IMG/VR virus record: IMGVR_UViG_3300042923_000319
Coordinates: 8,677-72,676 of that record
Strand: one strand, 5' to 3'
From: a virus
Length of the DNA stretch: 64,000 bases
The notes beneath the pieces were generated by a model. It was given only the letters and a program-made list of their open reading frames with translations, did no database searches and had not been told where the DNA came from. This document shows positions 414 through 62,886 of the stretch, piece by piece. Position 1 is the stretch's first letter. The number at the start of each line of letters is the position of its first letter. A program made the position numbers and the translations under genes.

Positions 414-431
414 GTCCACTGATGTGTGGAC
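414..431. promoter_or_regulatory. 18-bp operator-like site GTCCAC-TGATGT-GTGGAC upstream of the dnaE RBS
   Basis: Member of the GTNNAC-N6-GTNNAC family seen 15 times in the window. Confidence 0.75.
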
Positions 432-451
432 AAGGAGAATAGGAGGAGACA

Positions 452-3400
452 ATGGAAATTATAGATGAGGCAGTAAATGTCCATACGCATACACAGTATT
501 CATTAATGGACTCAACAAACAAACCAAAGGAACTCGTAGCTAAAGTGAAAGCTATGGGGCAAGCATCAATATGTATTACGGACCACGGTGAAACTAGTGG
601 ATTAATCGAAGTGTATAACGAATGTAAAAAACAAGGAATTCACATGGTATTCGGTTGTGAGCACTACCTAGTACCCGATGTTTTAATCAAAGAAGGTGGC
701 TATAAGCACATCATATTTTGGGCTAAGAATAACATTGGATACAATAATTTACTCAAGCTGACCACAGAAGCACATCAGAATTTCTATCGTAAACCACGTG
801 TTGACATTGATATGATTCGTAAGTATTCAGAAGGACTTGCGATGTCAACAGCGTGTATCGGTGGATGGCTTAGAATCAAAGATGAGTATGGGAATAACAC
901 AGTTGACATAGATTTACTTGAGCAATTTATTGAAATATTCCCTAATGATCTATGGATAGAACTCCACACTTACTCTATTAATGAGCAGAAGTGGTGGAAT
1001 AGGATTCTTATTGATATAGCAGAGAAATATAATCTACCACTCATAACAGCCTGTGATGCCCATTATACAAACAAAGAAGATGCCTATGCTCATAAAATGT
1101 GGATCACACAAGGGAAAGAGCGTGAAGATGGCTACTATCAACATCCAGAGTTTTTTCTTCATAGTGGTCAAGAAATACGTGAAGCATTATCATATCTACC
1201 TAGTGACATTGTTGAAGAAGCTATAGCTAATACTAAGGTTCTCGCTGATAGTTGCCAAGTAGAAATAAAGTTTGGTGAACAGCATTATCCAAAGGTTGAA
1301 TCAGAGAATTCAAAGGAATCAGTAAGACAGATAATGTTGAAAAATTGGAGATCAAAGGTTCCAAGGAGTGAATGGAAAGATCATGAAGCACGAGTGAATC
1401 ATGAGATGCCAATCTTAGAGAAAGCAGATTATTTCCCTTATTTTCTTATTATGCATGACTTTATGGAGCACTGTCAGTCACATGGAATTCCTGTATACCC
1501 AGATTCCCGTGGTAGTGCTGGTGGCTGTGACGTAGCTTATATTATGGATATCCATAAGACTAATCCAATAAAGTATGATTTGATGTTTGCTAGGTTTCTG
1601 CATGAGGCTAGGATCACCCCATGTGACATAGATATTGATGTCTCACAGAAAAAACGTGGAGAAGCAATAGAATACATTAAAAATAAATATGGTCACGACA
1701 GAGTGTTCCAAGCAAGAACCTATGGGTACATGAGTGCTAAGGGAGCATTAAAGAGAGCTGGGAGAAGCCTTGGGTATGACCCACAGTATATTAACGATTT
1801 ATCAAAAGGTATCTCAAAGTTTGGCGATGATGAATTCAAGGGTGAAGCGAAGGATAGACATCTGCTTGACCAATTGGACGCACCTAAAGACCTTATTGAG
1901 TTAGCTAAGTCTTTCGTTGGGATACTTCAAAGTTATTCTGTACATGCCAGTGGGGTCATCGTTTTCCCAGACGATCCAAACAATTATTGTGCCATTGAAA
2001 AATCTGGTGACAATTATGTAACAGCCTATGAGTTTCATACATTGGAAAAATTAGGCATCTTAAAACTGGACATTCTTGGAATAAAAACAATAGATGTTAT
2101 CTACGATACCTTAAAACTCATAGATAATCCACCAGATATCATTAACTTACCTCCAGCAGACACGAAGACATTCGATATGTTATGCAAAGGTAAAACAGCA
2201 GGAGTATTCCAGATTGAAGGCAGAGGATTTACGCAGTTGGTTCAAGCAATTCAACCGAGAACCTTTGAAGACCTTGCTCCACTTATGGCAGTTTACAGAC
2301 CAGCTATTATATCAGCAGGATTACTTCAAACGTATATCGATAGGAGAACTGGGAAAGAGCAGGTAGAGTACCTACATCCAGACCTTGAACCTTTACTTGG
2401 ACAAGTCTATGGTCTAATGATTTATCAAGAAAATATCATTGAGGTAGCAAAGACTATCTGTGGTTATTCCGCAGGTGAAGCTGATATGATCCGTAGAGCT
2501 TGCGGTAGAAAACTCCCAGAAGAAATGGCAAAAATTAAGCCAGACTTCATACAGCACGGGATCAGCAAAGGTTACGATATAACATTCATTGAAAGATTAT
2601 GGGAATTAATTGAATTCTTTGCAGAATATGGTTTTGGGAAAGCCCACACTTACGGGTATGGGACAAGGGCGTACATTACTGCATATCTCAAAGCTAATCA
2701 CACAAAAGAATTTATGGTTTCTCTTATCAATTCAGAGGATAACCAAGAAGATACAATACCATACATTGAAGAGTGTAAATCATTAGGTATTCCAATACTT
2801 CCACCAGATTTATCCGTCTGTAATACTCAATGGATAATCGAAGGTGATTCCATTCGTATTGGCTTACATTACCTCAAAGGTGTTGGAAATAATCTCTGTA
2901 CTGATTACACAGAAACACTCAATGATATCATAGCGCATAACCATAAGAATACTATTGAATCACTCATCAAATCTGGAGCCTTGGATTACCTCGGCCACAC
3001 CCGTGCATATATGCTGACCAACCTTAGCTCACTCCAAGATACAATGAAGCGTGTTAAGCAATGCCAGCAGAAAATACGGGATAACCAAGAGTTACTGCAA
3101 TCGTCCACGCTCGACAAGGACAAGCGTAAATATGAACGACAGATAAACTCATGGACACAGAAGTTAAACGAAGCACAGGCTCACACAGAGCTTACAGAAG
3201 AGTCCTATGATGAAGTCAAGGGTGAATGTGAGGTACTTGGGTTCAGCTTCAAAGAAATTCCAAAGGTTAAACTAGGGAAACTCACAAACATATTCAAGAA
3301 GAATGATAAGAACTCACACGAGATGGCTTGGCTCACAATGGATTCAGATTATGGAGAATACCGATGTACAGTCTTTGCAAGCGGATGGAAACTCATAGCT

Positions 3401-3520
3401 GACAAAGTTATCGTTGGTGAATCATATAAGTTCATTGTTGGTGACACGAATATATTGGAAGAACTCAAGGTTAACGGTGAAGTCATTAAGTTAAACGAAA
3501 GGAAGTTTTGGAAACGATGA
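452..3520 (+). CDS. dnaE: DNA polymerase III alpha subunit (family C, DnaE-type)
   Basis: PHP motifs HTHTQYS, TDHG and DAHY; catalytic SRGSAGG and CDIDID; KLDILG; AGVFQ; YGLMIYQE; strong RBS GGAGG. Confidence 0.96.
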   Translation: MEIIDEAVNVHTHTQYSLMDSTNKPKELVAKVKAMGQASICITDHGETSGLIEVYNECKKQGIHMVFGCEHYLVPDVLIKEGGYKHIIFWAKNNIGYNNLLKLTTEAHQNFYRKPRVDIDMIRKYSEGLAMSTACIGGWLRIKDEYGNNTVDIDLLEQFIEIFPNDLWIELHTYSINEQKWWNRILIDIAEKYNLPLITACDAHYTNKEDAYAHKMWITQGKEREDGYYQHPEFFLHSGQEIREALSYLPSDIVEEAIANTKVLADSCQVEIKFGEQHYPKVESENSKESVRQIMLKNWRSKVPRSEWKDHEARVNHEMPILEKADYFPYFLIMHDFMEHCQSHGIPVYPDSRGSAGGCDVAYIMDIHKTNPIKYDLMFARFLHEARITPCDIDIDVSQKKRGEAIEYIKNKYGHDRVFQARTYGYMSAKGALKRAGRSLGYDPQYINDLSKGISKFGDDEFKGEAKDRHLLDQLDAPKDLIELAKSFVGILQSYSVHASGVIVFPDDPNNYCAIEKSGDNYVTAYEFHTLEKLGILKLDILGIKTIDVIYDTLKLIDNPPDIINLPPADTKTFDMLCKGKTAGVFQIEGRGFTQLVQAIQPRTFEDLAPLMAVYRPAIISAGLLQTYIDRRTGKEQVEYLHPDLEPLLGQVYGLMIYQENIIEVAKTICGYSAGEADMIRRACGRKLPEEMAKIKPDFIQHGISKGYDITFIERLWELIEFFAEYGFGKAHTYGYGTRAYITAYLKANHTKEFMVSLINSEDNQEDTIPYIEECKSLGIPILPPDLSVCNTQWIIEGDSIRIGLHYLKGVGNNLCTDYTETLNDIIAHNHKNTIESLIKSGALDYLGHTRAYMLTNLSSLQDTMKRVKQCQQKIRDNQELLQSSTLDKDKRKYERQINSWTQKLNEAQAHTELTEESYDEVKGECEVLGFSFKEIPKVKLGKLTNIFKKNDKNSHEMAWLTMDSDYGEYRCTVFASGWKLIADKVIVGESYKFIVGDTNILEELKVNGEVIKLNERKFWKR

Positions 3521-3813
3521 AAGTTTATGTACTAGAATATTACGATGATGAACACAGTGGCATCCATAATATTTACCTCAGTAAAGCCAAAGCGGAGCAG
3601 GACAAACTAGAGCTTGAACAAAAGGAAATCGAAAGAAGTTTCAAAGACTTGCTGAGTTATTATAATGATTTTACACCAGAGGAAAGAACCCTTGTTGAAC
3701 AAGAGGAAGGCTATGGTTTCTTCTCAGTTGAGCATGTTCAATCGATAGAGAAAGACGCGAAATCATATGTAGAATATTGGTATATCATTGATGAACATGA
3801 GGCGATCGAGTAA
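3517..3813 (+). CDS. hypothetical protein
   Basis: ATGA overlap with the dnaE stop; acidic ORF of about 98 aa. Confidence 0.65.
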   Translation: MKVYVLEYYDDEHSGIHNIYLSKAKAEQDKLELEQKEIERSFKDLLSYYNDFTPEERTLVEQEEGYGFFSVEHVQSIEKDAKSYVEYWYIIDEHEAIE

Positions 3814-3828
3814 AGAAAAAGCAGAGGA

Positions 3829-4428
3829 TTAACCTCTGCTCAACTCATATAACTTTATTAATTTATCCGCTGTATCTCCCTTGAGTAGCCACTGATACAC
3901 CTCAGTCGGTAGTTTTTCGCGTAACTCAATGAAACTATAGAATTCAGTGCGATCATCTTGGGATACATTGGCAAATTTATCAATAGTCTCTGCTGTTTTA
4001 TTGGTATCTGTGAGAACCTCTAATGTTGTTCCCAATGCAGCAGCGAATCTCTTTGCTTCACTAGCTCTTATCGGATTCTTGCGAGATTCTTTTATGTGAA
4101 TCCCTTGTCTACCTTTGAAGCCCAATGTTTTAGCAAGTTCATCCGTTGGTATCTCTTTAGCTATTCTATATTTCTTCTCATTGTCCCAAAATGGCATCGG
4201 TGTAATGAAGTAATCCCAAAGTTCTTCTATAGTCTTATCAAGGAGTATCGATGCTTTGCTTTGGAGTTCCTGTGACACTTCTTTGGTTGAATTATTTTCG
4301 ATTTCAGAGTAGTTATTAGGGTTGATACCTAAAGCTTCAGCTATGACATCTATAGTAATATGCTTGGTCATCCTGTAGGTTTTAACGTTGTTCCAAAAGA
4401 TTCTTGAATCCATTATCGTCATCTCCAT
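3829..4428 (-). CDS. transcriptional regulator with two tandem XRE-type HTH domains; candidate master repressor
   Basis: Internal duplication FWNNVKTYRMTKHITIDVIAEALG / FWDNEKKYRIAKEIPTDELAKTLG; divergent from xis; an operator copy lies in its promoter. Confidence 0.75.
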   Translation of the reverse strand: MEMTIMDSRIFWNNVKTYRMTKHITIDVIAEALGINPNNYSEIENNSTKEVSQELQSKASILLDKTIEELWDYFITPMPFWDNEKKYRIAKEIPTDELAKTLGFKGRQGIHIKESRKNPIRASEAKRFAAALGTTLEVLTDTNKTAETIDKFANVSQDDRTEFYSFIELREKLPTEVYQWLLKGDTADKLIKLYELSRG

Positions 4429-4445
4429 TTCTTTGTGTATCTATA

Positions 4446-4463
4446 GTATACCATAAAGTATAC
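4446..4463 (-). promoter_or_regulatory. operator variant GTATAC-CATAAA-GTATAC inside the putative promoter of the two-HTH gene
   Basis: Minus strand reads TTTACT-acc-GTATAC-tttatg-GTATAC-TAT, the same geometry as the TTGACA...TACAAT operator-promoters. Confidence 0.55.
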
Positions 4464-4749: not shown

Positions 4750-4797
4750 TGGAGCTGATAATAGGATTTGAACCTACGACCTACTCATTACGAATGA
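4750..4797 (-). other. attP core: 3' half of tRNA-Thr(CGT)
   Basis: Reverse complement TCATTCGTAATGAGTAGGTCGTAGGTTCAAATCCTATTATCAGCTCCA gives anticodon CGT, T-arm and CCA with no 5' half; lies between xis and int; GGTGTAATC-type arm repeats at ~4680-4700 and ~4913-4934. Confidence 0.88.
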
Positions 4798-4909
4798 TAA
4801 GATATTGCAATGTGTTGACAATCGTCAACTAGCATTATCAATGGCTCAAAACTCTGGTTTCTCATTTGTGTTGACGACATGTCCACTAATTTACACAACA
4901 AAAATAAGG

Positions 4910-6328: not shown

Positions 6329-6667
6329 TCATTGAGAAACTTTCCGCGAAGCTAGAGGTTTCAGCATAGCTCTAACATCAGATATCGTTAAATTAGCATC
6401 TTTAACTTCAGGTATCATCGCATATACAATGTCTTCATTAGTAGATATATGTTCAATAGACGCATTGTCCTCATCGAAATATCGAGGTGGCAATCCAGCG
6501 ATCCGAATAAGGGTCGCTTCTTTTTGTCTGCTAAGTCTTTTGGTATTTGTTGGGCTTTCAAGTGTTGAGATGTATTTCTGTGTTACTCCAATAGCCTCTC
6601 CTAGTTGAAGCTGTGTCATTCCAAGGGATTCCCTGGCATTTCTCATTTTCTCATTATAGGTTAACAA
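6329..6667 (-). CDS. XRE-family HTH regulator
   Basis: RNARESLGMTQLQLGEAIGVTQKYISTLE; RBS AGGAGAGG. Confidence 0.85.
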   Translation of the reverse strand: MLTYNEKMRNARESLGMTQLQLGEAIGVTQKYISTLESPTNTKRLSRQKEATLIRIAGLPPRYFDEDNASIEHISTNEDIVYAMIPEVKDANLTISDVRAMLKPLASRKVSQ

Positions 6668-6839
6668 AATTGAACCTCTCCTTTACAAAATAAAATAATA
6701 CCCTCAGAAAGTTCTTGACTTACAGAACCATGAGTAGTATTATGTGTTTATAGGGTAATTATACCACAAAATTACATAAAATACAGAAGAAAAATATGAC
6801 AATTTCGTTAGCATTCATTACACTCATAAAAATAAAGTG

Positions 6840-6869
6840 TTGACATGCGTATACAGATGAGTGTACAAT
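6840..6869 (+). promoter_or_regulatory. sigmaA-type promoter with embedded operator (6849-6866)
   Basis: TTGACA-tgc-GTATAC-agatga-GTG-TACAAT. Confidence 0.8.
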
Positions 6870-7007
6870 ATGGATACAGGAAAGGAGGACAGCACATGAA
6901 CAAATATGAACGAAGGCGATTCTTTGAGTGCTTAAGGATCACAATGATGGTCACAGTAATTCTAGCATCACTAAAATTTATAATGATAGGGTAAGGAGAG
7001 AACAGAA

Positions 7008-7483: not shown

Positions 7484-7585
7484 TTAGTTTTAAGCACTAC
7501 GTAAAAATATTCGCTTATGATTGTCTACGAAACACATTAAAAACGCTTAGAGGGAGCGTGAGATACCTTAGAAATGGTTCAGTGG
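7470..7585. repeat. copy A of a dispersed ~110-bp element (CTTATGATTG...TAAAAACGCTTAGA...GCGTGAGA..CCTTAGAA)
   Basis: Similar to copies at ~8805-8916, ~10370-10480 and ~38815-38905. Confidence 0.7.
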
Positions 7586-7773
7586 TTTTTACGCCCCACA
7601 AGGTAGTCTATGGAGACATCAAAGTAGTCAGCGAGAGCTATTAAGGAAGATAGTGGGATATCAACGGTTCCTGCTTCGTATCTTCGATATTGTCTTTCGG
7701 ACAAACTAAGCGCATCCGACAATTCTTTTTGAGTTAAACCTTTATTATTTCGAAGTATTTTAAAATTATTCAT
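7579..7773 (-). CDS. XRE-family HTH regulator
   Basis: LRNNKGLTQKELSDALSLSERQYRRYEAG...LADYFDVSIDYLVGR. Confidence 0.9.
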   Translation of the reverse strand: MNNFKILRNNKGLTQKELSDALSLSERQYRRYEAGTVDIPLSSLIALADYFDVSIDYLVGRKNH

Positions 7774-7791
7774 AATTCACCTCAAAAAGTG

Positions 7792-7846
7792 TTGACAGGA
7801 CATAAAACGTCCTATATAATAAACATATGAGGACATAAGAAGTCCT
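7792..7846 (+). promoter_or_regulatory. consensus promoter with two AGGAC-N7-GTCCT operators
   Basis: TTGACA(7792)-17-TATAAT(7815); palindromes at 7797-7813 and 7830-7846 between the divergent HTH and antirepressor genes. Confidence 0.85.
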
Positions 7847-7877
7847 CCAATAAAAAACAAAGGAGACTAAAACAAAC

Positions 7878-8639
7878 ATGGAGACTAACTTAGTAAAAAT
7901 TGAAAATGGACAACCAGTAACATCCAGTAGAAAAGTAGCACAGGATTTCGAAAGACTTCATAAGAATGTATTGGTAAACGTAGAAGAAATTATTGGGGTG
8001 GCTGAGAAGTCAGCTGACCTATTCTTCAAAACAACCTACACTCATCCGCAAAACAAACAACAATATCCTGAGTACCTAATGAACCGCGACGGATTCACAC
8101 TGTTAGCAATGAGCTTTAAGGGAGCTAAAGCTATCAAATGGAAAATGAAGTACATCGCAGCTTTCAATGAGATGGAACAACAGCTTGCAACCTTGGATCA
8201 ACCATCGTATCAAATCGAGGATAAAATCAAGAGAGCTGAGAAGTGGATCGTGGAAGCTAGAGAACTCATGGATACACAATTGCAACTCCATGAAACTAAA
8301 CAACAGCTTACTGAAGCCAAACCTAAAGCCGACTTTGTAGATAAATATGTTGACAAAGGAATTACCTATAGTATTCGTCAAACAGCGAAGATTCTCAATA
8401 TCCCTGAAAGACAATTCGTTGATATTCTAATGACATCTAAAATTGTCTTTCGCCAATCTGGTTGCATTATGCCATATGCTAATAAACAAAGCGAAGGATA
8501 TTTTGAAGTAAAAGTTGGTTATAACTACGGATGGCAGTATGACCAAACACGGTTTACTACAAAAGGTATCTACTGGATTGCTAAAAGACTTAAAGACATC
8601 GCTGATCCTAATTGGGAATCAAAGTTACGCATAGCATGA
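7878..8639 (+). CDS. Rha-family / KilAC-domain antirepressor
   Basis: VTSSRKVAQDF, YLMNRDGFTLLAM (Rha); EAKPKADFVD...QTRFTTKG (KilAC). Confidence 0.9.
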   Translation: METNLVKIENGQPVTSSRKVAQDFERLHKNVLVNVEEIIGVAEKSADLFFKTTYTHPQNKQQYPEYLMNRDGFTLLAMSFKGAKAIKWKMKYIAAFNEMEQQLATLDQPSYQIEDKIKRAEKWIVEARELMDTQLQLHETKQQLTEAKPKADFVDKYVDKGITYSIRQTAKILNIPERQFVDILMTSKIVFRQSGCIMPYANKQSEGYFEVKVGYNYGWQYDQTRFTTKGIYWIAKRLKDIADPNWESKLRIA

Positions 8640-12697: not shown

Positions 12698-13069
12698 ATA
12701 GAATTCACATTTACACTACTTTTGTGCCTCCTTAGTCCACACATCAGTGGACATTGGACACTACAGGACAACTCAGAAATTATGCAGGTCAAGCAAGAAT
12801 ATCGCGAGGTGTACGCTGAAACCACAGGATATACATTGGGTGACGGTAATACACCAAGTACAATCATGGCAAACGGGGAGAAACCCCATAGCGGAGCAGT
12901 GGCTTACAATAGAGTACCACTGGGAACACGGTTGGAAATACAAGGAAAAATCTATGTAGTCAGTGATAGAGCAATGAATGATGACATTGTTGATATTTAT
13001 ATGGATAGCATTGAAGAATGCATGATGTACGGTAGGAGAATACAGAAGATAAAAATATTGGAGGATTGA
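12698..13069 (+). CDS. 3D-domain (cell-wall associated) protein, probable ATA start
   Basis: TTGYT...TIMANGE...VAYNRVPLGTRLEI...SDR...VDIYM; hydrophobic N-terminus from ATA 12698. Confidence 0.7.
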   Translation: MEFTFTLLLCLLSPHISGHWTLQDNSEIMQVKQEYREVYAETTGYTLGDGNTPSTIMANGEKPHSGAVAYNRVPLGTRLEIQGKIYVVSDRAMNDDIVDIYMDSIEECMMYGRRIQKIKILED

Positions 13070-17482: not shown

Positions 17483-17512
17483 TTGACAAGCGTATACGCA
17501 TCGGTATACAAT
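17483..17512 (+). promoter_or_regulatory. sigmaA-type promoter with embedded operator (17492-17509)
   Basis: TTGACA-agc-GTATAC-gcatcg-GTA-TACAAT. Confidence 0.82.
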
Positions 17513-20259: not shown

Positions 20260-20765
20260 AAGAACTACTAAAAACAATAGTGTTCACAATGTTAGGATCA
20301 ATAGTTATAGCTGCATATATTTATTTGTTTATCATTAGTTTTAGCCTTGGATATATAGTATCAGTATTGCTTGTACTTGGATATCTGTTTCAGTTAGCCG
20401 TAAGAGCGTATATTGACTATAAAAGTTAACCACCGTCCACACATCGGTATACACCAAGTATACCATAGAAAGGAGCAATCAATACATGAAACTTTACAAA
20501 AACGTGAAGATTTCCATAGATTCTAAAAGAAAATCCAATGATACCACAAAGAAATTAATCATGGAATTTGTGAGAAGATATCGGATTGACGAGGTGAGAG
20601 CGTGAGTATTTTAGCCCCAAACCTTGCGTTCATCGTTGTGGACAGGCAAGGTAAGTACATTAAATCCTATGACAAACTACGGTACGCCAAGAGTTTCCGC
20701 ACGAGAAACGGTGGACTCTATGATATTTACCGCACAGTAACTGTGGAGAAAGTTGAGGTGGAGTA

Positions 20766-23754: not shown

Positions 23755-25965
23755 ATGTCATCAAATACAAACCTAAATGGTAACTGGTATGAACGCGAAG
23801 TTGGTTCACAGGTTCTACAAAAGAAATATCTACATGAAAACGAAGACTTTAACGGTATGATTGAGCGTGTCACCGCTACCGCTGGAGTTCCTGCAATGAA
23901 GGACTACCTTAGAAACGCTGATTTCTTCTTGGCTGGTCGCAGTCTCTACGGAGCAGGACTCAAGGATGTTAAAAAGGTCACAACATCGAACTGTTTTGTA
24001 CTCAAGACACCAGAAGACACCCTTGATTCAATCTATGATACATGCAAAGATGCAGCCATCATTGGTTCTCTTGGTGGTGGCGTTGGTGTAGCAGTGGATA
24101 ACATTAGACCCAAAGGTTCAATTATTAACAATTCAGCGAAGGAATCCAGTGGCGTAGAGTTCGTAATGAATCTCTTAAATGAAACAGGGCAGAACATTGG
24201 TCAACAAGGAAGACACATGGCTATCATGGTTATGCTTGATTGTAACCATCCAGATATCATTGAGTTTCTAGGGATAAAACAGCGGAATAACCGATTGGAC
24301 TCAATGAATATCTCAATAAAATTCACAGATAAATTCATGGAAGCTGTAAGAGACAATAAAGAATATACACTACAATTCGATGTGAAATCCACAGGTGAAC
24401 ACATTGAACGTACAATAAACGCCAAGGATTTCTTCATGAAGTTCTGTGAGTGCCAATATGACTGGGGTGATCCAGGAGGATGTTTTATTGACCGTGTGAA
24501 AGATTATCAGTTACTCAGTGGATACGATGATTATACGATAGATGCTTCAAATCCATGTGCAGAATTCTTTGGAAACGCTGGCAATGCATGTAACTTAGCT
24601 AGTATCAATTTGTATAATATAGTCGATGATCCATTCACTGATAATGCAACGATTAATTATAATAAACTCAGAAATCTCGTTCAAAATGGTGTGGTAGCTC
24701 TCAATAACATTCTAAATTATGGGTATGATATGCAACCATTAGACCAAAATCGTAAGTGTATCGATGATTGGCGTTCAATTGGGTTGGGTATCTTTGGTTT
24801 AGCAGATATGTTGATAGCATTGGGATTGCGATACGGCAGTGAAGAGGCTAATAAGAAAATTGATTATGTAATGGATTATATTTTATATAATGCACTAGTA
24901 ACATCGAACGACTTAGCAGAGGCAGAGGGGTCATTTGGTAAGTTTAATTGGAAATCAACAAAGAAATCTAAGATAATTGACAGTATTAAAGATACAGATC
25001 TCTACGACAACATTAAACAATATGGACTTCGCAATGGCACACTGCTCTCCATCGCTCCAGCAGGGACAATCAGTACAATGTGTGGCATCTCTAACGGATG
25101 TGAACCACTATTCATGATTTCCTACGAGCGCACAACGCACTCCTTAGAAAAACAAGGGAAATACTTTAAAGTCTACGCTAAATCCGTTGAAGACCTACTG
25201 AAACACCACGGTATCGACCCAGAATCAATCACAGTGGACGAAATAAAGAAACGCTTCCCATTTGTTGTGGACTCCCATGATATCACTCCAGAAGAACGTG
25301 TGAGAACCCAAGCAGTCATGCAGAAATACGTTGATAATGCCATCAGCTCTACAGTAAATCTCAAGGAATCAGCAACAGTACAGGATATCTTTGATACCTA
25401 TATGTTAGCATGGGAGCAAGGGTTGAAGGGGATTACAGTGTTTAGAGATGGATGTAAACGTGGATCAATCTTAGGTGGTTCTGGTGCAAATCCCGAACCA
25501 AAGAAATTCAACAGTATCTCACCAGTTAAACGCAACAATATCCGCAAGATGGACGGTAGCACATTCGTTGGTCATACAGCGTGTGTCAAGAATCTGTACA
25601 CTACAGTCAATAAAATGGGGGATGATGTGTTTGAAGTGTTTACTAATGCGTCTACAGGATGCCGTAGCAATATCAATACAATTACTCGGTTAGTATCATT
25701 AGCACTCCGTAGTAGAATCAAAGTTAGCGAAGTTGTTCATGAGTTAAAAGCAAACTCTTGTCCAGCGTGTACTGTACTAAAGGGTCAAGGGAAGAACATT
25801 AGTAACTCTTGCGGCACTTCTATTGCAGAGGCTATCGAAGAAGCTTATGGAGCCACGGAAGCCGATGAAACACTCGCGATTTGTCCAGAGTGTGGCAAAA
25901 GAGGATTAGTGCCTACTGGAAAGTGCGTTTCGTGCAATCAATGTGGCTATTCAAAATGTGATTAA
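23755..25965 (+). CDS. nrdJ: class II (B12-dependent) ribonucleotide reductase
   Basis: TSNCF, NPCAE, CNLASINL, IAPAGTIS, KGITVFRDG, C-terminal Zn ribbon; no beta subunit in the window. Confidence 0.9.
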   Translation: MSSNTNLNGNWYEREVGSQVLQKKYLHENEDFNGMIERVTATAGVPAMKDYLRNADFFLAGRSLYGAGLKDVKKVTTSNCFVLKTPEDTLDSIYDTCKDAAIIGSLGGGVGVAVDNIRPKGSIINNSAKESSGVEFVMNLLNETGQNIGQQGRHMAIMVMLDCNHPDIIEFLGIKQRNNRLDSMNISIKFTDKFMEAVRDNKEYTLQFDVKSTGEHIERTINAKDFFMKFCECQYDWGDPGGCFIDRVKDYQLLSGYDDYTIDASNPCAEFFGNAGNACNLASINLYNIVDDPFTDNATINYNKLRNLVQNGVVALNNILNYGYDMQPLDQNRKCIDDWRSIGLGIFGLADMLIALGLRYGSEEANKKIDYVMDYILYNALVTSNDLAEAEGSFGKFNWKSTKKSKIIDSIKDTDLYDNIKQYGLRNGTLLSIAPAGTISTMCGISNGCEPLFMISYERTTHSLEKQGKYFKVYAKSVEDLLKHHGIDPESITVDEIKKRFPFVVDSHDITPEERVRTQAVMQKYVDNAISSTVNLKESATVQDIFDTYMLAWEQGLKGITVFRDGCKRGSILGGSGANPEPKKFNSISPVKRNNIRKMDGSTFVGHTACVKNLYTTVNKMGDDVFEVFTNASTGCRSNINTITRLVSLALRSRIKVSEVVHELKANSCPACTVLKGQGKNISNSCGTSIAEAIEEAYGATEADETLAICPECGKRGLVPTGKCVSCNQCGYSKCD

Positions 25966-27310
25966 CGTCTACACATCGGTATACAGAAAAGGAGAACCTA
26001 TGAACCCAGATTATTTCATGTCAACCTTTGGATATCAAAGAGTAAGCGAGGAGAAACCAATGAATATGGCAACTATAAGTATAATCACAGAGGAACAATC
26101 CAAAGCTCTTCAAATGGTTCGCAAGGAAATTCCTATATTATGGAAAGAAATAACTATGAATAGTTGCTGTGAAATCTATTGTCCTAAAGAGCCAGTCTGT
26201 GAAATCTGTTGGAATAATGCAGCAGATAAACAACGAGGAGGAACCAATGAAAATTATTGTTCACACTGATGAACTAATCAATGATTTATCCCGTATCGCT
26301 GACCTAAAATTATCAAAGACGACTCGATTAGTTCTACACACCAACCAAGAAATAATCCCTGGCTCCACCTATGTCTTAATCGATGGTGAAGAAGTGTATC
26401 CCAGTGCTTTATCAATGTTTACCGAGATATATTCGCAGGGAAGAAAGGTGGAGATTTAGCCAATGGTCAAATATGTGATTCATCCTGGGTGGGTATGGAG
26501 TAAAACTGATGGGGATGACCACTATATAACTTATGGAAAACTCATCAGTTTATACAAAGTTAGCTCACATGAGTGTGTTAGGTATGATAACCATGGTTTT
26601 TCTATAGATAGAATTTGTGATAATTATATTCATTTATTCCCTAGATATGATGGCGACTACCAAATAACAAAGGAGGACACCAAATGAAAGCAATCGCAGA
26701 ATACATCGTTAAAATCAAGGTAATCGAAGATTGCACCGATGAACTAGCTAATAATATATTAAGCTTACCAAAAGAAGATATTGATAGCATCAGAGGAGTA
26801 ATCGAGGCTGACATTAAGGATGCAGTTGTAGATCATATGAAAGCTAATGCTGAGGTGTCCGTCAACACAATACGCTTTGAATTTCTGGAGGAAATGTGAT
26901 GCAAGCTACAAAAGAAACAAAGTTCAACATCGGTGATACCGTAAAACCAATTACGCTTTACAACAGTAATATAGCCATCGATATACTAAGGATTGAACCA
27001 GAAATCACCATCGTTGATTGCAAGGTGACACAAGTATCTTATCTTTGTGAATATCCCAATGGTGAACGAAAGTATATACAAGAAAATATGTTGTGTACTA
27101 CCGAAGGTGCTGACGAATTAGTTAAGGGGTATCTATAAAAATGCAAACCACTCTAACCTCAAAGCACAACATCGGTGATACCGCGATCCTACGAGCCATA
27201 CACTGGCGTGAACCAGTGACTATCCAAGATGTAATCTTTGACGACCATGAAAGAAAATTTAGATACCTCACAGACACTTATGACTGTTACATTGATGAAA
27301 CGGAGTTGGA

Positions 27311-29460: not shown

Positions 29461-29506
29461 TGTGTCCACTGATGTGTATACAACAATAAAACGATAGGAG
29501 AATTGG

Positions 29507-30145: not shown

Positions 30146-30472
30146 CCACGCCGTCTACACATCAGTACACGAAGGAGCTGACTCAATGATTCACCACGTA
30201 CTCATCGATATTGACAAAGACTATTACATGACAGCCATAGAAACATCAGCATCCAAAAGCGAAATCCTAGACTACTTCGAACAACACAGTCCAGACGTTA
30301 GATACCTCAGAGCAACCCATGAGCGTTCAAAGCATGATATAGGGACACGACAATGCCCCCTTGGTACCATCATTAAATGCTCATATTTTGACAATAAAAT
30401 TATGGCGTATAAAACCAAGAGTAAATATAAGTTGGATACATTGAATAATGCAGAGATTGATCGGAGGCATAA

Positions 30473-31246
30473 ATGTTAGAAATCAATAGAATTTACAATG
30501 AAGATTGCTTGGAAGGTATGAAGAAAATCGATGATGGTAGCGTGGATATGATACTATGTGATTTGCCGTATGGGACAACGCAAAACAAATGGGATTCAGT
30601 GATACCTTTGGATAAACTTTGGGAGCAATATAATCGCATCATTAAACCTAGTGGAGCTGTAGTGTTAACAGCGAGCGGAAGATTTACTGCAGAGTTGATG
30701 ATGTCTAATATTAAATATTGGAAATACAACCTTGTTTGGCAGAAAACAACTCCAACTGGATTCTTGAATGCAAAGAAAATGCCTCTAAGAATTCATGAAG
30801 ATATTTGCGTGTTCTATAAAAAACTGCCTATATATAATCCGCAGAAAACAAAAGGAAATCCTAGAAAAGTCAGCAAAGCAACTCATAAAATAAACTGTAA
30901 AGAAACCACAAATTATGGCAAGCATAACCTCAGCACCTACGATAGTACTGAAAGATATCCTACAAGTATATTTAAATTTCCGACAGATAAGCAAAAGAGT
31001 TCTTTACATCCTACACAAAAACCAGTGGCACTCTTTGAATATCTCATTAAGACCTACACCAACAAAGGCGACCTTGTGCTTGACAATTGTATTGGCTCTG
31101 GTACAACTGCAGTAGCAGCCATAGACACTAACAGAAACTTCATTGGTTTTGAGTTAGACAAGGATTACTTTGATATTGCCAATGAACGTATCAACGCTAC
31201 ACCTATGACTACACCGTCCACGCATCAGTATACAAAGGAGGCATAA
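30473..31246 (+). CDS. N6-adenine/N4-cytosine DNA methyltransferase (beta class)
   Basis: DLPYG, HPTQKPVAL, VLDNCIGSGTT. Confidence 0.92.
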   Translation: MLEINRIYNEDCLEGMKKIDDGSVDMILCDLPYGTTQNKWDSVIPLDKLWEQYNRIIKPSGAVVLTASGRFTAELMMSNIKYWKYNLVWQKTTPTGFLNAKKMPLRIHEDICVFYKKLPIYNPQKTKGNPRKVSKATHKINCKETTNYGKHNLSTYDSTERYPTSIFKFPTDKQKSSLHPTQKPVALFEYLIKTYTNKGDLVLDNCIGSGTTAVAAIDTNRNFIGFELDKDYFDIANERINATPMTTPSTHQYTKEA

Positions 31247-37158: not shown

Positions 37159-37858
37159 TTAATTTTAAATATTTATCAAAGATTGTCTTTGGATTTACGT
37201 TGTATTCACATTCGCCATACCATAGAATTCTAAAGGTGTTCGATAGCTCGAATTGTGAGCCGTAGAGTTCTAAGGTGTAGCCGTGGAAGCGGTAGCGTTT
37301 CATAGTGGTGCTCTCACTTTCTTGATTTTTATCCCAGTTAATCCACTAGCATTTTCACGATAACATTTGAGCTGTGTCTTAGCTTCTTTATATGTTTCTT
37401 CCGTGAGTTCAACTTCCCAACCATAGCCATAATTAGTGATAAGCTGATATTCGTCTTTGGTTTTGCGTATATACATTTTGTATTCCCTCCGTTTATTTAT
37501 TAGTTTATCATTGGTATACCGATGCGTATACGGTGGGTATCGGTTTGTAACGTTGTTACATTTCAACGATTCTTAGTGCTATTTTGTTACCGTCTTGTAT
37601 TGCTCCGTCCCATACATAAGTATCATTAAATAGTGCGTGGTGGATACCATCGATTTTTACATAGCCTGTTCTATGATACCCTACTTGTTCCAAGAATTTA
37701 GTCAAGAAGTCGAGTAAGTTGTCTATGTTACGATCTACCTGTAGTTCCCAAACTTTAGCTTTTACTGGTCGTCCGTGGTTAACACTAAGGTTGCTTATAA
37801 ACTCTTCATATGCTGTCATTGTTTATCATAGTTTGCCTTTGTTATCTTCTGTATCTCT

Positions 37859-37888
37859 ATTGTATACCAATGTGTATACGTTTGTCAA
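37859..37888 (-). promoter_or_regulatory. leftward promoter with embedded operator (37862-37879)
   Basis: Minus strand TTGACA-aac-GTATAC-acattg-GTA-TACAAT. Confidence 0.8.
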
Positions 37889-39752: not shown

Positions 39753-40480
39753 TTTACCATAAAACACTTACATAAGTGTATCATCAGAAAAACAAATGAC
39801 AAAACACTGATATCAATCAGAAAAACAAATAGCAAGTATATGGTAAATTACATAGCTCTACACCATTGATTTCATTGGGTTCATAGGTATCATAAGTTTT
39901 AACTATGGCTATCATAAAAATTTAGTATGGTAAAAACATCAAAAATAGGGTGCAAAGGTTCCTAAATCTGACCATTACTATGTAGGGGTTAAACAAGTGG
40001 TACTAGGGTATATCAATGAAGAGCTTAAGGGATACTTAGGATAACCTAAAATATAATCATAATAAATCGTAACGAGTGAAACGAGGTTACGGAGATATAC
40101 GTAAACGTATATCTCAACTCATCGCTTACGCTTGAGTTATTCTTAATCAAATAAATATTGACCAGACTTAGAACAGAGCCTAAGATATACTTTGGTAAGC
40201 TTTAGTCCAATATAGTTATTCTTATGAAATCCGCTTCGCAGTGAACATAAGTTAATCTATAGTATATTAAAGTGATTCAAAGTAACTACTTAGGTATATA
40301 ACCACATCAGCTTATATTTATTGATAATGCGTTCTAGACGAAGCGTAGCGAAGTGATTGTCATCAGACAATCTAACCCACTTTAGCTATATATTGAATAC
40401 AACCAAATAAACATTTTTTAAATACACCTTTGATAATTCATTGGTGTATTTTTTATGTTCAAAAACAGGAGGTTATAACA

Positions 40481-41344: not shown

Positions 41345-41380
41345 TGTCTACACATCAGTATACAATGAAAGGAGATACCA

Positions 41381-43867: not shown

Positions 43868-44161
43868 GCAAGGAAGAACAAGATCGTCACAAGCGGAAAA
43901 CCATAAAGAAACCACGGAATATCAAGAAATACATCAAAGAAAAGCTCAATAAACTTGAGTACATGGAGGAAATCTATGGAAAACGATGAATTAATCGAGG
44001 TTATCGATGATCTACGTGAAGAAAATGAATACTTAAGAGATACATTGATTGTAGCATTGGTTAAACTGTCGAAATATCAGCAGGAAGAGATCGATGGCTA
44101 TGATAAATACTTCGCTGGATTCGGCAATAGGTCTAACTAAGGTGTCTACTGATGTGTAGAC

Positions 44162-46130: not shown

Positions 46131-46670
46131 ATGACTTGTATCGTTGGCTTTATTGATAAAGGTAATGTTTATATCGGCGGAGATTCAGCGTCATCCAACC
46201 AATCAATCATAAGGACTCGCAAAGCACCAAAGGTATTTACTAATGGCGAATTTCTAATTGGCACAAGTGGTTCATTTCGTATGAGTGGCCTTATTAGATA
46301 TTCATTCAATCCACCTAAATATATTGAAGCTGCACATGGAGATATCTGTAGATATATGTGTACAGCTTTTGTTGATTCGTTACGTAACTGCTTGACAAGC
46401 GGTGGATTCGCGAAGGTTTCATGCAATGAAGAGACTGGCGGATTTTTCTTAGTTGGATTCAAGGGAAAGTTGTTCACAGTCGAGGCTGATTACCAAGTTG
46501 AAGAATGTGTTGATCAATACACTTCTATTGGTTCTGGAGAATCATACGCCCTCGGTTCGCTCTTTAGCTCAACCAAAGAAACACCAAAAGAAAAGATAGA
46601 AGATGCATTAAAATGTGCTGAATACTTTAATCCATTCGTTAGAAGTCCATTCACAATACTGAAGATATAG
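46131..46670 (+). CDS. HslV/proteasome-beta-like Ntn protease
   Basis: N-terminal Thr (M-TCIVG), IGGDSA, SIGSGESYALG. Confidence 0.75.
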   Translation: MTCIVGFIDKGNVYIGGDSASSNQSIIRTRKAPKVFTNGEFLIGTSGSFRMSGLIRYSFNPPKYIEAAHGDICRYMCTAFVDSLRNCLTSGGFAKVSCNEETGGFFLVGFKGKLFTVEADYQVEECVDQYTSIGSGESYALGSLFSSTKETPKEKIEDALKCAEYFNPFVRSPFTILKI

Positions 46671-61937: not shown

Positions 61938-62034
61938 TTGTAAAACCTCCTGCTATTTTTAGTATATTATGGTAGTTCGACAGGAGGTAAAGTTTTCCTG
62001 CAAATATTTACAAAAAAATAAACAAAAGAGAGCC

Positions 62035-62283: not shown

Positions 62284-62298
62284 GATGTTATCCTCCCT

Positions 62299-62451
62299 TT
62301 ATCCTGGTTTGATATCGAATTCTTTCTTCAATATTACAGCAATCATATTACTGATTGTTCTTTGTTCATTTTTTGCTTTAATCTCTAATTCTTTATATAA
62401 ATCTGTTGGTAATGTTATAGAAAACCTTTTACTGTTTTGTGAAATAGTCAC
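62299..62451 (-). CDS. ribbon-helix-helix (Arc/CopG-like) regulator, absent from the ORF track
   Basis: MTISQNSKRFSITLPTDLYKELEIKAKNEQRTISNMIAVILKKEFDIKPG; RBS GAGGTG. Confidence 0.75.
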   Translation of the reverse strand: MTISQNSKRFSITLPTDLYKELEIKAKNEQRTISNMIAVILKKEFDIKPG

Positions 62452-62617
62452 TCGTCCTCACCTCTGTGTTTTAGTGTAACACCATTGTATCATAAATATT
62501 CACTCGTGTGTAAAAATATGATAAAAATATGATAAAAATATATTGACACAAATAATCCATAGTGTTATTATTGATTACAGGTGATGCACCTTAAATAACA
62601 CATAGGAGGAACAAAAA

Positions 62618-62845
62618 ATGGTAAGAGTAATTTTCAACGAACTAAACAATGGACAATCCGTGACAAGCAAGGAAATACTTCATGGACAAACAGTGGAGCT
62701 TCTCAAGCTAATCAAAGAGGTAGATGATGTTTATATTGAAGACAACCAATATAAATACAATGCTTCTTCATTAAAACTAGCGACTTACGCTAATGAGATT
62801 GATACACTGTCGGTCTACATGGAAGTACCAGAGGATGAACAATAA
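62618..62845 (+). CDS. hypothetical protein
   Basis: RBS AGGAGG; TTGACA promoter at ~62543. Confidence 0.65.
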   Translation: MVRVIFNELNNGQSVTSKEILHGQTVELLKLIKEVDDVYIEDNQYKYNASSLKLATYANEIDTLSVYMEVPEDEQ

Positions 62846-62856
62846 AAAATAAAGTG

Positions 62857-62886
62857 TTGACATTCGTATACAAATGAGTATACAAT
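62857..62886 (+). promoter_or_regulatory. promoter with embedded operator (62866-62883)
   Basis: TTGACA-ttc-GTATAC-aaatga-GTA-TACAAT; near-copy of the 6840 promoter. Confidence 0.82.

What the first reader, a model, noticed from the sequence alone, without database searches (positions are those of the whole stretch)
414..62883. Genome-wide network of an 18-bp bipartite operator GTNNAC-N6-GTNNAC (stoperator-like)
Seen: 15 copies at 414, 4446, 6849, 12735, 17492, 20435, 25967, 29464, 30153, 31216, 37514, 37862, 41346, 44144 and 62866. Each is two GTNNAC hexamers (GTATAC, GTCCAC, GTCTAC, GTACAC or complements) around a 6-bp spacer that is usually RCATCR in either orientation; 4446 has a variant spacer. 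Four copies sit exactly 3 bp after TTGACA with the right hexamer overlapping a TACAAT -10 (6849, 17492, 37862, 62866). Most others lie at or near a stop/RBS junction with no promoter nearby, for example before dnaE, after nrdJ, after dut, before the sigma-like gene, before terS and before the ncRNA/tRNAs. Established: mycobacteriophage L5 repressor uses dispersed stoperators to block elongation. Inference: a similar silencing network covers replication, early and late genes here, but with a two-fold symmetric, orientation-independent site.
Basis: partly seen in the sequence, partly recalled or inferred. Interest (0 to 1): 0.85.

Follow-up and report, generated by a model that had tools for sequence, protein, structure and literature searches.

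The report
Genome-wide repressor site network in phage
An uncultured temperate soil phage carries 17 copies of one 18-bp protein-binding site, in its early promoters and between its genes, and this looks like a low-GC-phage counterpart of the "stoperator" silencing networks known from phages of actinobacteria.

Summary
GTNNAC-N6-GTNNAC occurs 16 times in the window against 0.7 expected, and 18 times in the whole 72.7-kb phage genome. I judge 17 copies real; 16 of the 18 lie outside called ORFs. Five copies sit 3 bp after TTGACA and overlap a TACAAT -10. One variant overlaps the promoter of a 199-aa XRE repressor gene (R1). Eleven sit in stop/RBS junctions with no promoter.

The only relative found is G004 (DnaE 59% identical, syntenic). 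It has none of these sites. Instead it has 23 copies of a different palindrome, GACAC-N5-GTGTC, in the same layout, including two syntenic promoters, and it carries an unrelated repressor at the R1 locus.

R1 contains an internal duplication of its HTH unit. That fits the arm asymmetry: GTCYAC faces upstream in 7 of 7 mixed-arm junction sites. RNA-hairpin and sigma-promoter readings fit poorly.

Best reading: these are operators of a phage repressor, and the junction copies probably act as roadblocks. Binding and roadblocking are untested.

Verdict: a new variant of a known kind.

The parts
414..431 (+). Junction-type site GTCCAC TGATGT GTGGAC, 13 nt after the upstream stop and 20 nt before the dnaE start
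   Evidence: DnaE identified
3829..4428 (-). R1, a 199-aa XRE-family protein with two HTH units (about residues 11-70 and 80-140). Best candidate binder of the sites.
   Evidence: Pfam HTH_3 at residues 16-70. Second unit: HTH_3 over profile positions 2-55 at E 0.17; phrog_4 at 82-144 and phrog_2967 at 85-155. hhalign of unit 1 against unit 2: 94.6% probability, E 7e-8. Only 3 proteins found in the 5.8-billion-protein collection.
4446..4463 (-). Variant site GTATAC CATAAA GTATAC (central TA instead of AT), overlapping promoter-like hexamers for R1 on the - strand and facing the divergent HTH_17 (excisionase-like) gene
   Evidence: TTGATA-17-TATACT, 10 of 12, on the - strand; HTH_17
6329..6667 (-). 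R2, a 112-aa XRE HTH protein next to the integrase. It has a 34%-identical homologue in G004. Second candidate binder.
6849..6866 (+). Promoter-type site inside TTGACA-18-TACAAT (6840-6869), divergent from R2
12735..12752 (+). Intergenic site GTCCAC ACATCA GTGGAC in a 163-nt gap, with no promoter and no clear RBS next to it
17492..17509 (+). Promoter-type site inside TTGACA-18-TACAAT (17483-17512), directly after the DnaB-like helicase gene. Syntenic with the G004 promoter-type site at 40209.
20435..20452 (+). Junction-type site GTCCAC ACATCG GTATAC, 5 nt after a stop
25638..25655 (.). Pattern match inside the nrdJ ORF with an atypical left arm (GTTTAC). Probably the one match expected by chance.
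25967..25984 (+). Junction-type site 1 nt after the nrdJ stop and 15 nt before the next start
29464..29481 (+). Junction-type site 3 nt after the dUTPase-domain gene and before DNA methyltransferase 1. The spacer is flipped relative to the arms.
30153..30170 (+). Junction-type site 7 nt after methyltransferase 1
31216..31233 (+). Junction-type site at the end of methyltransferase 2, followed by AAAGGAGG and an open frame (from ATC 31250) that encodes a sigma70-region-4 protein
37514..37531 (-). Junction-type site (GTATAC arms) between two - strand genes, 348 nt downstream of the - strand promoter
37862..37879 (-). Promoter-type site inside TTGACA-18-TACAAT on the - strand
41346..41363 (+). Junction-type site 1 nt after an HNH-like gene and 17 nt before a 212-aa gene of unknown family
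44144..44161 (+). Junction-type site GTCTAC TGATGT GTAGAC, 3 nt after a stop and 274 nt before tRNA-Trp and tRNA-Thr. Last site before the structural genes.
62866..62883 (+). Promoter-type site inside TTGACA-18-TACAAT, before an antirepressor gene (P22_AR_N and KilAC domains)

Best explanation
The 18-bp elements are DNA binding sites of one phage-encoded XRE-family repressor of a temperate, probably Bacillota-infecting, siphovirus. The most likely binder is R1 (window 3829-4428, - strand). R1 has two unlike HTH units in one chain, so one molecule could contact both hexamers.

At five near-identical early promoters the site fills the -35/-10 spacer and overlaps the -10, so a bound protein would block initiation. 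A variant copy over R1's own promoter region would give autoregulation. The eleven copies in stop/RBS junctions have no promoter. Their most likely role is to stop RNA polymerase that has started elsewhere (a roadblock, stoperator-like), keeping replication, nucleotide-metabolism and regulatory genes silent in the lysogen and after superinfection.

Shown: the family exists, where it lies, its asymmetry, and the specificity swap in a relative.

Inferred: that a protein binds, that the protein is R1, and that junction copies block elongation.

My odds for the steps:
- sites for a DNA-binding protein: 0.85
- a repressor of the early promoters: 0.75
- R1 is the binder: 0.5
- junction copies act as roadblocks: 0.4
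For: 1. Enrichment and sharpness. 18 copies against 0.7 expected. 16 of 18 lie outside ORFs. There is almost no degenerate tail.

2. Fixed register in promoters. In 5 of 5 copies of one repeated promoter cassette the site starts 3 nt after TTGACA and supplies TAC of TACAAT. Other consensus promoters lack it (window 7792, 38522 on the - strand, 62543). It therefore marks one regulon and is not part of promoters in general.

3. A variant site overlaps promoter-like hexamers of the R1 gene.

4. Swap in a relative. G004 shares 32 of my 132 called ORFs in the same order. It has 0 copies of this motif and 23 copies of GACAC-N5-GTGTC, against a null mean of 0.1 and a maximum of 1. Three of these overlap the -35 of TTGACA promoters. 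Most of the other 20 lie between a stop codon and an RBS (19 of all 23 sites lie outside called ORFs). Two promoter copies are syntenic: after the conserved 179-aa gene block and after the helicase.

5. At the R1 locus G004 has an unrelated 112-aa single-HTH protein. It is predicted to pair with itself: ipSAE 0.53 against a best control of 0.00; that mark was reached by 21 of 30 proteins solved as pairs and 0 of 23 solved as single chains; the runs agree in at least 93% of contacts; partner pLDDT is at least 88. XRE dimers have been solved, so this pass may come from memory. All 23 G004 arms are perfect palindromes. In G000, 8 of 18 arm pairs are unlike, and R1 has a duplicated HTH unit.

6. 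R2 is less likely. Both consensus-like promoters I read between G004's R2 homologue and the first site lack the palindrome.

7. Arm polarity with respect to transcription. 7 of 7 mixed-arm junction sites have GTCYAC upstream (two-sided binomial p 0.016, my arithmetic). L5 stoperators show the same kind of polarity (PMC9283540, passages).

8. Temperate lifestyle. The genome has an integrase and an excisionase-like gene. In several metagenome runs, contigs leave the phage at 4760 and 4796/4797 into tRNA-like letters.
Against: - There are no binding, transcript or ChIP data.
- Only two genomes of this lineage could be found. The covariation argument therefore rests on one pair.
- R1 and R2 are not separated by any direct test. 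A lineage-specific sigma70-region-4 protein (window 31250-31897), with no G004 homologue, is a third lineage-specific DNA-binding candidate.
- The AlphaFold model of R1 is poor beyond residue 82 (mean pLDDT 49.7). The second HTH rests on sequence evidence only.
- The spacer (ACATCA or TGATGT) flips independently of the arms at 29464, and it points either way in the three perfectly symmetric junction sites. A fixed-orientation monomer does not predict this.
- G004 junction sites share a further conserved box (TARCTATG, 10-17 nt upstream, often holding the upstream stop codon). The roadblock model does not explain it.
- The variant at G004's R1-locus promoter is only a half-site.
- Protein roadblocks are often leaky (general knowledge).
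Confidence: 0.5

Rival explanations
1. The same repressor binds all sites, but the junction copies are not roadblocks. They could be auxiliary sites (looping, cooperative loading, a local reservoir of repressor), or decayed copies of the repeated promoter cassette with little function of their own.
For: Three non-promoter or weak-promoter sites (414, 4446, genome 7094) carry, on the - strand, the same flank that follows the -10 in the promoter cassette (ATAG-A-ACAC-like). This suggests descent from promoter copies. The promoter cassette is a dispersed repeat that breaks metagenome contigs at 6826/6828 and 6870. In G004, 20 non-promoter sites share a roughly 37-bp cassette, which points to spread by duplication.
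Against: Eleven copies in G000 and about 20 in G004 keep perfect core matches while their flanks differ, and degenerate copies are nearly absent. That pattern indicates selection on each copy. The placement inside tight operons, and the arm polarity in 7 of 7, are what a transcription-linked role predicts.
Confidence: 0.2
2. The binder is a lytic-cycle regulator (Cro-like shut-off or temporal switch protein) and not the lysogeny repressor. It would turn off the five early promoters and modulate read-through at junctions during infection.
For: The sites lie only in the early, replication and regulatory part of both genomes. Each phage has several HTH proteins. In G004 the promoters next to the integrase-proximal repressor lack the motif.
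Against: No small HTH gene follows any of the five promoters. The first ORFs downstream have no Pfam or PHROG DNA-binding hit. The only gene whose own promoter carries a site is R1, which sits in the lysogeny module beside the xis-like gene, attP and the integrase.
Confidence: 0.15
3. The junction copies work as RNA: a hairpin just 5' of the Shine-Dalgarno sequence that serves as a translational operator, a processing site or a 5' stabiliser.
For: Most of the 11 G000 junction sites end 2-23 nt before an SD (counted by eye; 12735 has no SD beside it). In G004 every copy can form a 6-bp stem (-5.1 kcal/mol for the six copies folded). Polarity with respect to transcription is expected for an RNA element.
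Against: In G000, 7 of 11 junction sites do not fold (MFE 0 to -1.8 kcal/mol) because the arms mismatch. The arm sequences are invariant and do not covary. The same element sits in untranscribed promoter spacers in a fixed register. Distances to the SD and to the stop codon vary. Rfam finds nothing but two tRNAs.
Confidence: 0.05
4. The junction copies are promoters for a phage-specific sigma or activator, such as the sigma70-region-4 protein at 31250-31897, and start middle transcripts at the RBS.
For: A sigma-like gene exists: Sigma70_r4 at E 3e-8 and phrog_1740 at E 1e-11. The sites are oriented with transcription and lie directly upstream of genes.
Against: No conserved -10-like element lies at a fixed distance after the sites (by eye from the contexts; one search lists no sigma-A-type promoter of 10 or more of 12 next to a junction site). 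A start there would leave almost no leader before the SD. A palindrome is not what a sigma factor reads. G004 has the same architecture but no homologue of this sigma-like protein.
Confidence: 0.05
5. The sites are targets of DNA-level enzymes: the two phage methyltransferases, a GTNNAC-type restriction system, a recombinase, or a homing endonuclease that shuffles gene cassettes.
For: Three sites flank the two methyltransferase genes. The layout of 6-bp arms around a 6-bp asymmetric core resembles recombinase core sites (recalled). An HNH-like gene precedes 41346.
Against: Single GTNNAC hexamers are neither depleted nor special (269 against 232). The fixed register in promoters and the repressor-promoter copy are not explained. 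The two genomes are colinear, with no sign of inversions between sites.
Confidence: 0.03

Closest known systems
Repressor-stoperator system of Cluster A mycobacteriophages (L5 gp71; TipsytheTRex repressor structure). PMC9283540, passages read.
   Same: More than twenty sites for one immunity repressor are spread over the genome, in promoters and in short intergenic spaces. Site orientation follows the direction of transcription. The binder contacts an asymmetric site with two DNA-binding domains in one chain; here that is inferred from R1's duplicated HTH.
   Different: L5 sites are 13-mer and fully asymmetric; these are 18-bp pseudo-palindromes. R1 is an XRE HTH_3 protein with no detectable similarity to the solved mycobacteriophage repressor (no such hit at E up to 1). 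The host type is low-GC and Bacillota-like (inferred from SD and promoter signals), not actinobacterial. Elongation block is shown for L5 and untested here.
Streptomyces phage R4 / phiJoe repressor-stoperator system. PMC10276819, passages read.
   Same: One repressor acts at an early promoter and at eight or more intergenic sites.
   Different: These are actinophages. Homology to R1 was not tested. The site sequences are different.
phiC31 repressor c and its 17-bp conserved inverted repeats (recalled from memory; two searches of the paper library, did not retrieve the original papers).
   Same: A palindromic operator that autoregulates the repressor gene recurs in highly conserved copies in intergenic regions of the early region. 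This is the nearest match for a palindromic form of the idea.
   Different: A high-GC Streptomyces phage with a different repressor family, as far as I recall. Nothing here was compared with it by any tool.
SPbeta MrpR (YopR) and the SPbeta repeated element SPBRE. PMC10516654, abstract and passages read.
   Same: In a large Bacillota prophage, one master repressor binds a 15-bp element repeated in about ten promoter regions. This matches the promoter-type class here.
   Different: MrpR has a tyrosine-recombinase fold, and R1 is an XRE HTH protein. In the passages read, SPBRE copies are reported in promoter regions, not in promoter-less stop/RBS junctions.
Classical CI/Cro-type (XRE) repressor-operator modules of temperate phages (lambda, 434, P22; general knowledge).
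   Same: An HTH_3 protein in the lysogeny module, a 14-18-bp dyad operator inside promoter spacers, and a site at the repressor's own promoter.
   Different: Classical modules have 2-6 operators clustered at the immunity region. Here 17 are dispersed over 65 kb, most of them away from any promoter. The candidate repressor is a tandem-HTH chain.

Membership tests
Cluster A-type repressor-stoperator system | One motif, many copies, both in promoters and in short intergenic gaps of operons | tested here: met
   6 promoter-associated and 11 junction copies; 16 of 18 matches outside ORFs
Cluster A-type repressor-stoperator system | Site orientation correlated with the direction of transcription | tested here: met
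   GTCYAC arm upstream in 7 of 7 mixed-arm junction sites. Spacer orientation is not significantly biased (8 against 3).
Cluster A-type repressor-stoperator system | Asymmetric 13-bp site | tested here: not met
   18-bp bipartite pseudo-palindrome
Cluster A-type repressor-stoperator system | Repressor homologous to L5 gp71 or the TipsytheTRex repressor | tested here: not met
   phmmer of R1 against all PDB chains at E up to 1 finds only PezA, SinR, ClgR, YbaQ-type XRE proteins and a lectin. Pfam finds HTH_3 only.
Cluster A-type repressor-stoperator system | The bound repressor stops transcription elongation | not testable with these tools
   No RNA run holds the phage. Needs reporter or in vitro transcription assays.
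CI/Cro-type XRE repressor with operators | HTH_3 protein encoded in the lysogeny module | tested here: met
   R1 HTH_3 E 1.5e-7; R2 HTH_3 E 5e-7; integrase phrog_1 E 6e-60; HTH_17 xis-like
CI/Cro-type XRE repressor with operators | Operator overlaps the -35/-10 of the regulated promoters and the repressor's own promoter | tested here: met
   Fixed register in 5 of 5 cassette promoters; variant site over the R1 promoter-like hexamers
CI/Cro-type XRE repressor with operators | The protein binds the operator | not testable with these tools
   No protein-DNA prediction or assay was available
SPbeta MrpR-SPBRE | Tyrosine-recombinase-fold repressor | tested here: not met
   R1 and R2 are HTH_3 proteins. 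The only integrase-family ORF is the 399-aa integrase.
Intergenic RNA hairpins (processing or translational operators) | The stem is maintained across copies, with covariation | tested here: not met
   7 of 11 junction sites do not fold; arms are invariant or mismatched, never compensatory
Sigma-factor-dependent phage promoters | A conserved -10 element at a fixed distance, with room for a leader | tested here: not met
   No conserved element after the site (by eye; no sigma-A-type promoter beside a junction site); the SD follows within 0-25 nt

The most novel reading that the evidence does not exclude
A lineage of uncultured low-GC soil phages has independently evolved stoperator-type whole-genome silencing with XRE-family repressors. 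The repressor and all of its roughly 20 sites are exchanged as one specificity set between relatives. G000 uses a tandem-HTH single chain that reads an oriented 18-bp pseudo-palindrome. G004 uses a single-HTH homodimer that reads a perfect 15-bp palindrome. The junction copies would be portable stop-operator-RBS cassettes that spread through the operons.
Probability: 0.3. Interest if true: 0.75.

Novelty: new variant of a known kind. Interest (0 to 1): 0.6.

Why it matters
Genome-wide roadblock silencing by an immunity repressor has been shown only for actinobacteriophages (L5 and its relatives, R4). If the junction sites here block elongation, the strategy is general and has arisen with an ordinary XRE HTH scaffold. 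It could then be looked for in the many uncultured temperate phages by simple dyad counting.

The pair G000/G004 also gives a natural experiment. The genome plan is the same, but the repressor-and-site sets are different and orthogonal, one apparently single-chain and oriented, the other dimeric and symmetric. That would allow a direct test of whether roadblock polarity depends on repressor asymmetry, which is an open point for the L5 system (PMC9283540, passage).

There are practical uses. The sites predict immunity groups from sequence. They mark early promoters and operon structure in unannotated phage genomes. Compact repressor/site pairs of this kind could be tried as transcriptional insulators in Bacillota.

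Tried and rejected
Close relatives
- Megablast and blastn against 50,697 phage records gave nothing beyond short antirepressor matches. tblastn with DnaE and TerL gave at most about 35% identity.
- DnaE as a single query in viral contigs found one relative at 25%. With alignment A1 the best hit was G004 at 59%, and the next were 42% or less.
- Metagenome and genome-contig scans with alignment A2 gave only hits of 39% or less, mostly bacterial DnaE.
- R1 (alignment A3) found nothing in viral contigs.

Motif scans of viral contigs
- The junction consensus gave 60 loci, 59 with a single match (chance level). The one locus with two matches (L059) is a duplicated methyltransferase segment.
- The promoter-plus-operator pattern found one unrelated 56-kb phage (L066/G001) with two such promoters and no shared proteins in the locus. 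I did not use it.
- The G004 cassette patterns found multiple copies only in G004.
- G005-G008 have no copy of the motif and no comparable perfect dyad.

Other steps that led nowhere
- A first regex for G004 used the wrong spacer and found 0; it was corrected.
- AlphaFold2 of R1 from a 3-sequence alignment gave mean pLDDT 49.7, with residues 83-199 under 50. I neither used it nor sent it to a fold search.
- The Atlas gave only HTH_3-type leads for R1, and weak leads (Terminase_5, GerE, HTH families, all under 0.9) for the 212-aa protein.
- Sequencing runs: 6 DNA runs of soil metagenomes from 4 studies hold the stretch; no RNA holder is listed. Laying contigs showed variants, but the table of differences is cut to 40 of 893 rows. 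I could not read whether the sites vary, and I make no claim either way.
- Mosaic boundaries: by hand, 7 of 16 sites lie at a junction between a conserved and a non-conserved gene. That is about the background rate, so the idea was dropped.
- A second conserved box in G000 intergenic DNA: k-mer enrichment shows only the SD and the site itself.
- TARCTATG in G004: 13 of 23 forward copies lie within 25 nt upstream of a site. There are also 10 forward orphans and 8 reverse copies, so its meaning is open.
- Papers: the search for 'phage repressor', 'roadblock', 'operator', 'prophage' listed 6 papers, none on a dispersed network in Bacillota phages. The phiC31 searches did not find the original work. 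I therefore claim no absence from the literature beyond these searches.
- Supplementary files were not requested. Supplementary Table S3 of PMC10276819 and the supplementary figures of PMC10516654 may hold site lists that I did not see.

Full report
WHAT IS THERE

The pattern GTNNAC-N6-GTNNAC matches 16 times in the window. Dinucleotide shuffles give 0.71 (largest 4), and 0 of 100 shuffles reach 16. The extra one (25638) lies inside the nrdJ ORF, has an atypical arm, and is probably the one match expected by chance.

The window is bases 8677-72676 of a 72,676-bp virus record rated complete. The whole record has 18 matches against 4 for the reversed control pattern, and against a mean of 0.7 in 100 Markov simulations. 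The two copies outside the window are a promoter-type site (genome 6863) and a junction-type site (genome 7094). 16 of 18 lie outside my called ORFs, although about 82% of the genome is ORF. One-mismatch relatives are almost absent: 6, of which 5 are in ORFs. Single GTNNAC hexamers are not unusual (269 against 232 expected). The family is real and sharply defined.

THE PHAGE

It has no close relative among 50,697 phage records. It encodes:
- a DnaE-type polymerase, an integrase, an antirepressor and a Gp2.5-like SSB
- a DnaB-like helicase, a dUTPase-domain protein, a thymidylate synthase, two DNA methyltransferases and an exonuclease
- a long (1590-aa) ORF that I take to be the tape measure protein, and an ORF with terminase large-subunit matches
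- two tRNAs
- three XRE HTH proteins: R1 (199 aa, 3829-4428, - strand), R2 (112 aa, 6329-6667, - strand, next to the integrase) and a 64-aa protein at 7579-7773

An HTH_17 excisionase-like gene faces R1. In several soil-metagenome runs, contigs leave the phage sequence at 4760 and 4796/4797 and continue into tRNA-like letters. The attachment site therefore lies between the xis-like gene and the integrase, and the phage is temperate. In the prophage map, R2 and the integrase sit at one end and R1 and the xis-like gene at the other. The host is unknown. The AAGGAGG ribosome sites and the TTGACA/TACAAT promoters suggest Bacillota; this is an inference.

THREE CLASSES OF SITE

(a) Promoter-type. 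Five copies (genome 6863; window 6849, 17492, 62866 on the + strand, 37862 on the - strand) lie in near-identical promoter cassettes. The site begins 3 nt after TTGACA, and its right hexamer supplies TAC of TACAAT. Other consensus promoters (7792, 38522 on the - strand, 62543) lack it.

(b) R1 promoter. The variant at 4446 (central TA) overlaps promoter-like hexamers of R1 on the - strand.

(c) Junction-type. Eleven copies lie in promoter-less gaps. They sit 1-13 nt after a stop codon in eight cases, and 15-33 nt before the next called start in eight cases. Their contexts are:
- 414: before dnaE
- 25967: after nrdJ
- 29464: after the dUTPase-domain gene
- 29464, 30153 and 31216: around the two methyltransferase genes
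- 31216: before a sigma70-region-4 gene
- 41346: before a 212-aa gene of unknown family
- 44144: before the tRNAs

The frame that encodes the sigma70-region-4 protein is open from an ATC codon 8 nt after a strong SD. No site lies in the structural module.

SYMMETRY

The spacer has a central AT in all copies but 4446, and CAT on one strand. The arms are exact or G:T complements in 10 of 18 matches and unlike in 8. In all 7 junction sites with unlike arms, GTCYAC is on the transcription-upstream side and GTATAC or GTACAC on the downstream side (two-sided p 0.016 by my arithmetic). Spacer orientation is not significantly biased (8 against 3) and flips independently of the arms at 29464.

RNA OR DNA?

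Seven of the 11 junction sites do not fold as RNA (MFE 0 to -1.8 kcal/mol). The arms never show compensatory change. The same element sits in untranscribed promoter spacers in a fixed register. Rfam finds only the two tRNAs. No conserved -10 follows the junction sites: I read this by eye, and one search lists no sigma-A-type promoter beside them. A DNA-binding protein is by far the simplest reader of these sites.

THE RELATIVE

A profile search with DnaE found proteins at 66% and 65% identity. Among reachable contigs only one relative exists, G004 (80,215 bp, DnaE 59%). 32 of my 132 called ORFs have tblastn hits there, in the same order. G004 and four more distant DnaE phages have no copy of the G000 motif.

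G004 has its own motif: GACAC-N5-GTGTC occurs 23 times, against a null mean of 0.1 and a maximum of 1, with only 4 one-mismatch variants. Three copies overlap the -35 of TTGACA promoters (17157, 40209, 75753). Most of the other 20 lie between a stop codon and an RBS; 19 of the 23 sites lie outside called ORFs. Two promoter copies are syntenic with G000 promoter copies, one after the conserved 179-aa gene block and one directly after the helicase.

So the architecture is conserved while the sequence, the length (15 against 18 bp) and the position in the promoter (-35 against spacer and -10) are all different. That is what a swap of a repressor together with its sites predicts.

WHO BINDS

At the R1 locus (between dnaE and the xis-like gene, - strand) G004 has an unrelated 112-aa single-HTH XRE protein. 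Its promoter carries half a G004 site. It is predicted to pair with itself: ipSAE 0.53 against a best control of 0.00; that mark was reached by 21 of 30 proteins solved as pairs and 0 of 23 solved as single chains; the runs agree in at least 93% of contacts; partner pLDDT is at least 88. Similar XRE dimers have been solved, so this pass may come from memory.

G000's R1 holds an internal duplication. Residues 11-43 align with residues 80-112 at 94.6% hhalign probability, E 7e-8 and 39% identity. The second unit matches HTH_3 over the whole profile at a weak E of 0.17, and matches two PHROG repressor families.

A single-HTH dimer fits the perfect palindromes of G004. A two-HTH single chain fits the oriented, unequal arms of G000.

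R2 has a 34%-identical homologue in G004, but both consensus-like promoters I read between that homologue and the first site lack the G004 palindrome. That speaks against R2 as the binder. The 64-aa HTH protein has its own pair of local palindromes at the antirepressor promoter. The sigma-like protein has no G004 homologue and remains a weak third candidate. R1 occurs in only three forms in 5.8 billion proteins.

HOW IT MOST LIKELY WORKS

Bound repressor occludes the five cassette promoters and autoregulates R1. This is inferred from position.

The junction copies are maintained as perfect cores in tight operons, with polarity with respect to transcription. Their most likely role is to stop polymerases that start at unregulated promoters or leak through. 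The closest known cases are:
- L5 stoperators (PMC9283540, passages)
- R4-type Streptomyces phages (PMC10276819, passages)
- the palindromic intergenic operators of phiC31 (recalled only)
- SPbeta's MrpR/SPBRE for the promoter class (PMC10516654)

R1 is not homologous to the solved mycobacteriophage repressor. This is an analogue, not a member of that family.

WHAT REMAINS OPEN

- No binding or transcript data exist, and no RNA run holds the phage.
- Only one pair of genomes supports the covariation argument.
- The R1 model is poor.
- The spacer flips are unexplained.
- The extra TARCTATG box of the G004 cassettes is unexplained.
- Three G000 sites carry promoter-cassette flanks on the opposite strand. 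Junction copies may therefore descend from promoter copies, and some may be auxiliary sites and not roadblocks.

VERDICT

This is a new variant of a known kind, of moderate to high interest, and it can be tested with simple EMSA and reporter experiments.

Noticed in passing
window 4750-4800: In three to four soil-metagenome runs, contigs leave the phage sequence at 4760 and at 4796/4797 and continue into letters that look like part of a tRNA gene. Word depth also peaks in this region. The phage attachment site probably lies here, between the xis-like gene and the integrase, with a tRNA gene as the bacterial site.
   Followed up: partly
window 7579-7880: An immI-like module. A 64-aa XRE HTH gene (- strand, HTH_3 E 2e-14) diverges from a perfect TTGACA-17-TATAAT promoter for an antirepressor gene. 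Two copies of a separate palindrome (AGGACATAA-N3-GTCCT) lie in the promoter spacer and just downstream. The 64-aa protein and the antirepressor both have homologues that lie side by side in G004.
   Followed up: partly
window 31250-31897: The sigma70-region-4 protein (Sigma70_r4 E 3e-8; phrog_1740 sigma factor E 1e-11) has no ATG, GTG or TTG start with an SD. Its frame is open from an ATC codon 8 nt after AAAGGAGG, so it may use a non-canonical start. It has no homologue in G004.
   Followed up: partly
window 46131-46670: The gene directly upstream of the large terminase is an HslV/proteasome-like peptidase (PF00227 E 3e-5; phrog_1040 E 5e-23), not a recognisable small terminase. The small terminase is not identified. 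The 212-aa gene at 41381-42019 has only a weak Atlas lead to Terminase_5.
   Followed up: no
L001:1768-1980 (genome 7130-7342, upstream of the window): A 70-aa early ORF matches the signalling domain of methyl-accepting chemotaxis proteins (PF00015 E 8e-14). That is an odd fragment for a phage early gene.
   Followed up: no
G004 (L147-L151), 20 non-promoter sites: The G004 sites sit in a roughly 37-bp cassette: gG..TAACTATG.CCAA..TG, then the palindrome, then the RBS. The TAA is often the stop codon of the upstream gene. The box is unexplained. It could be a second binding site or a sign that the cassette spreads as a unit.
   Followed up: partly
L072 (a locus of a 66.8-kb viral contig, DnaE 35%) and G006: Other DnaE-encoding phages also carry dispersed palindromes. 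TATTC-N7-GAATA occurs 7 times in 22 kb of L072, several times just upstream of TTGAC promoters. AAACATGTTT occurs 8 times in G006 (null maximum 5). Multi-site regulons may be common in these large phages.
   Followed up: no
window 6826-6870: The early promoter cassette (UP-like AAATAAAGTG, TTGACA, site, TACAAT) is a dispersed repeat of about 45 bp. Metagenome contigs break or switch to the copy at 62866 exactly at its edges.
   Followed up: partly
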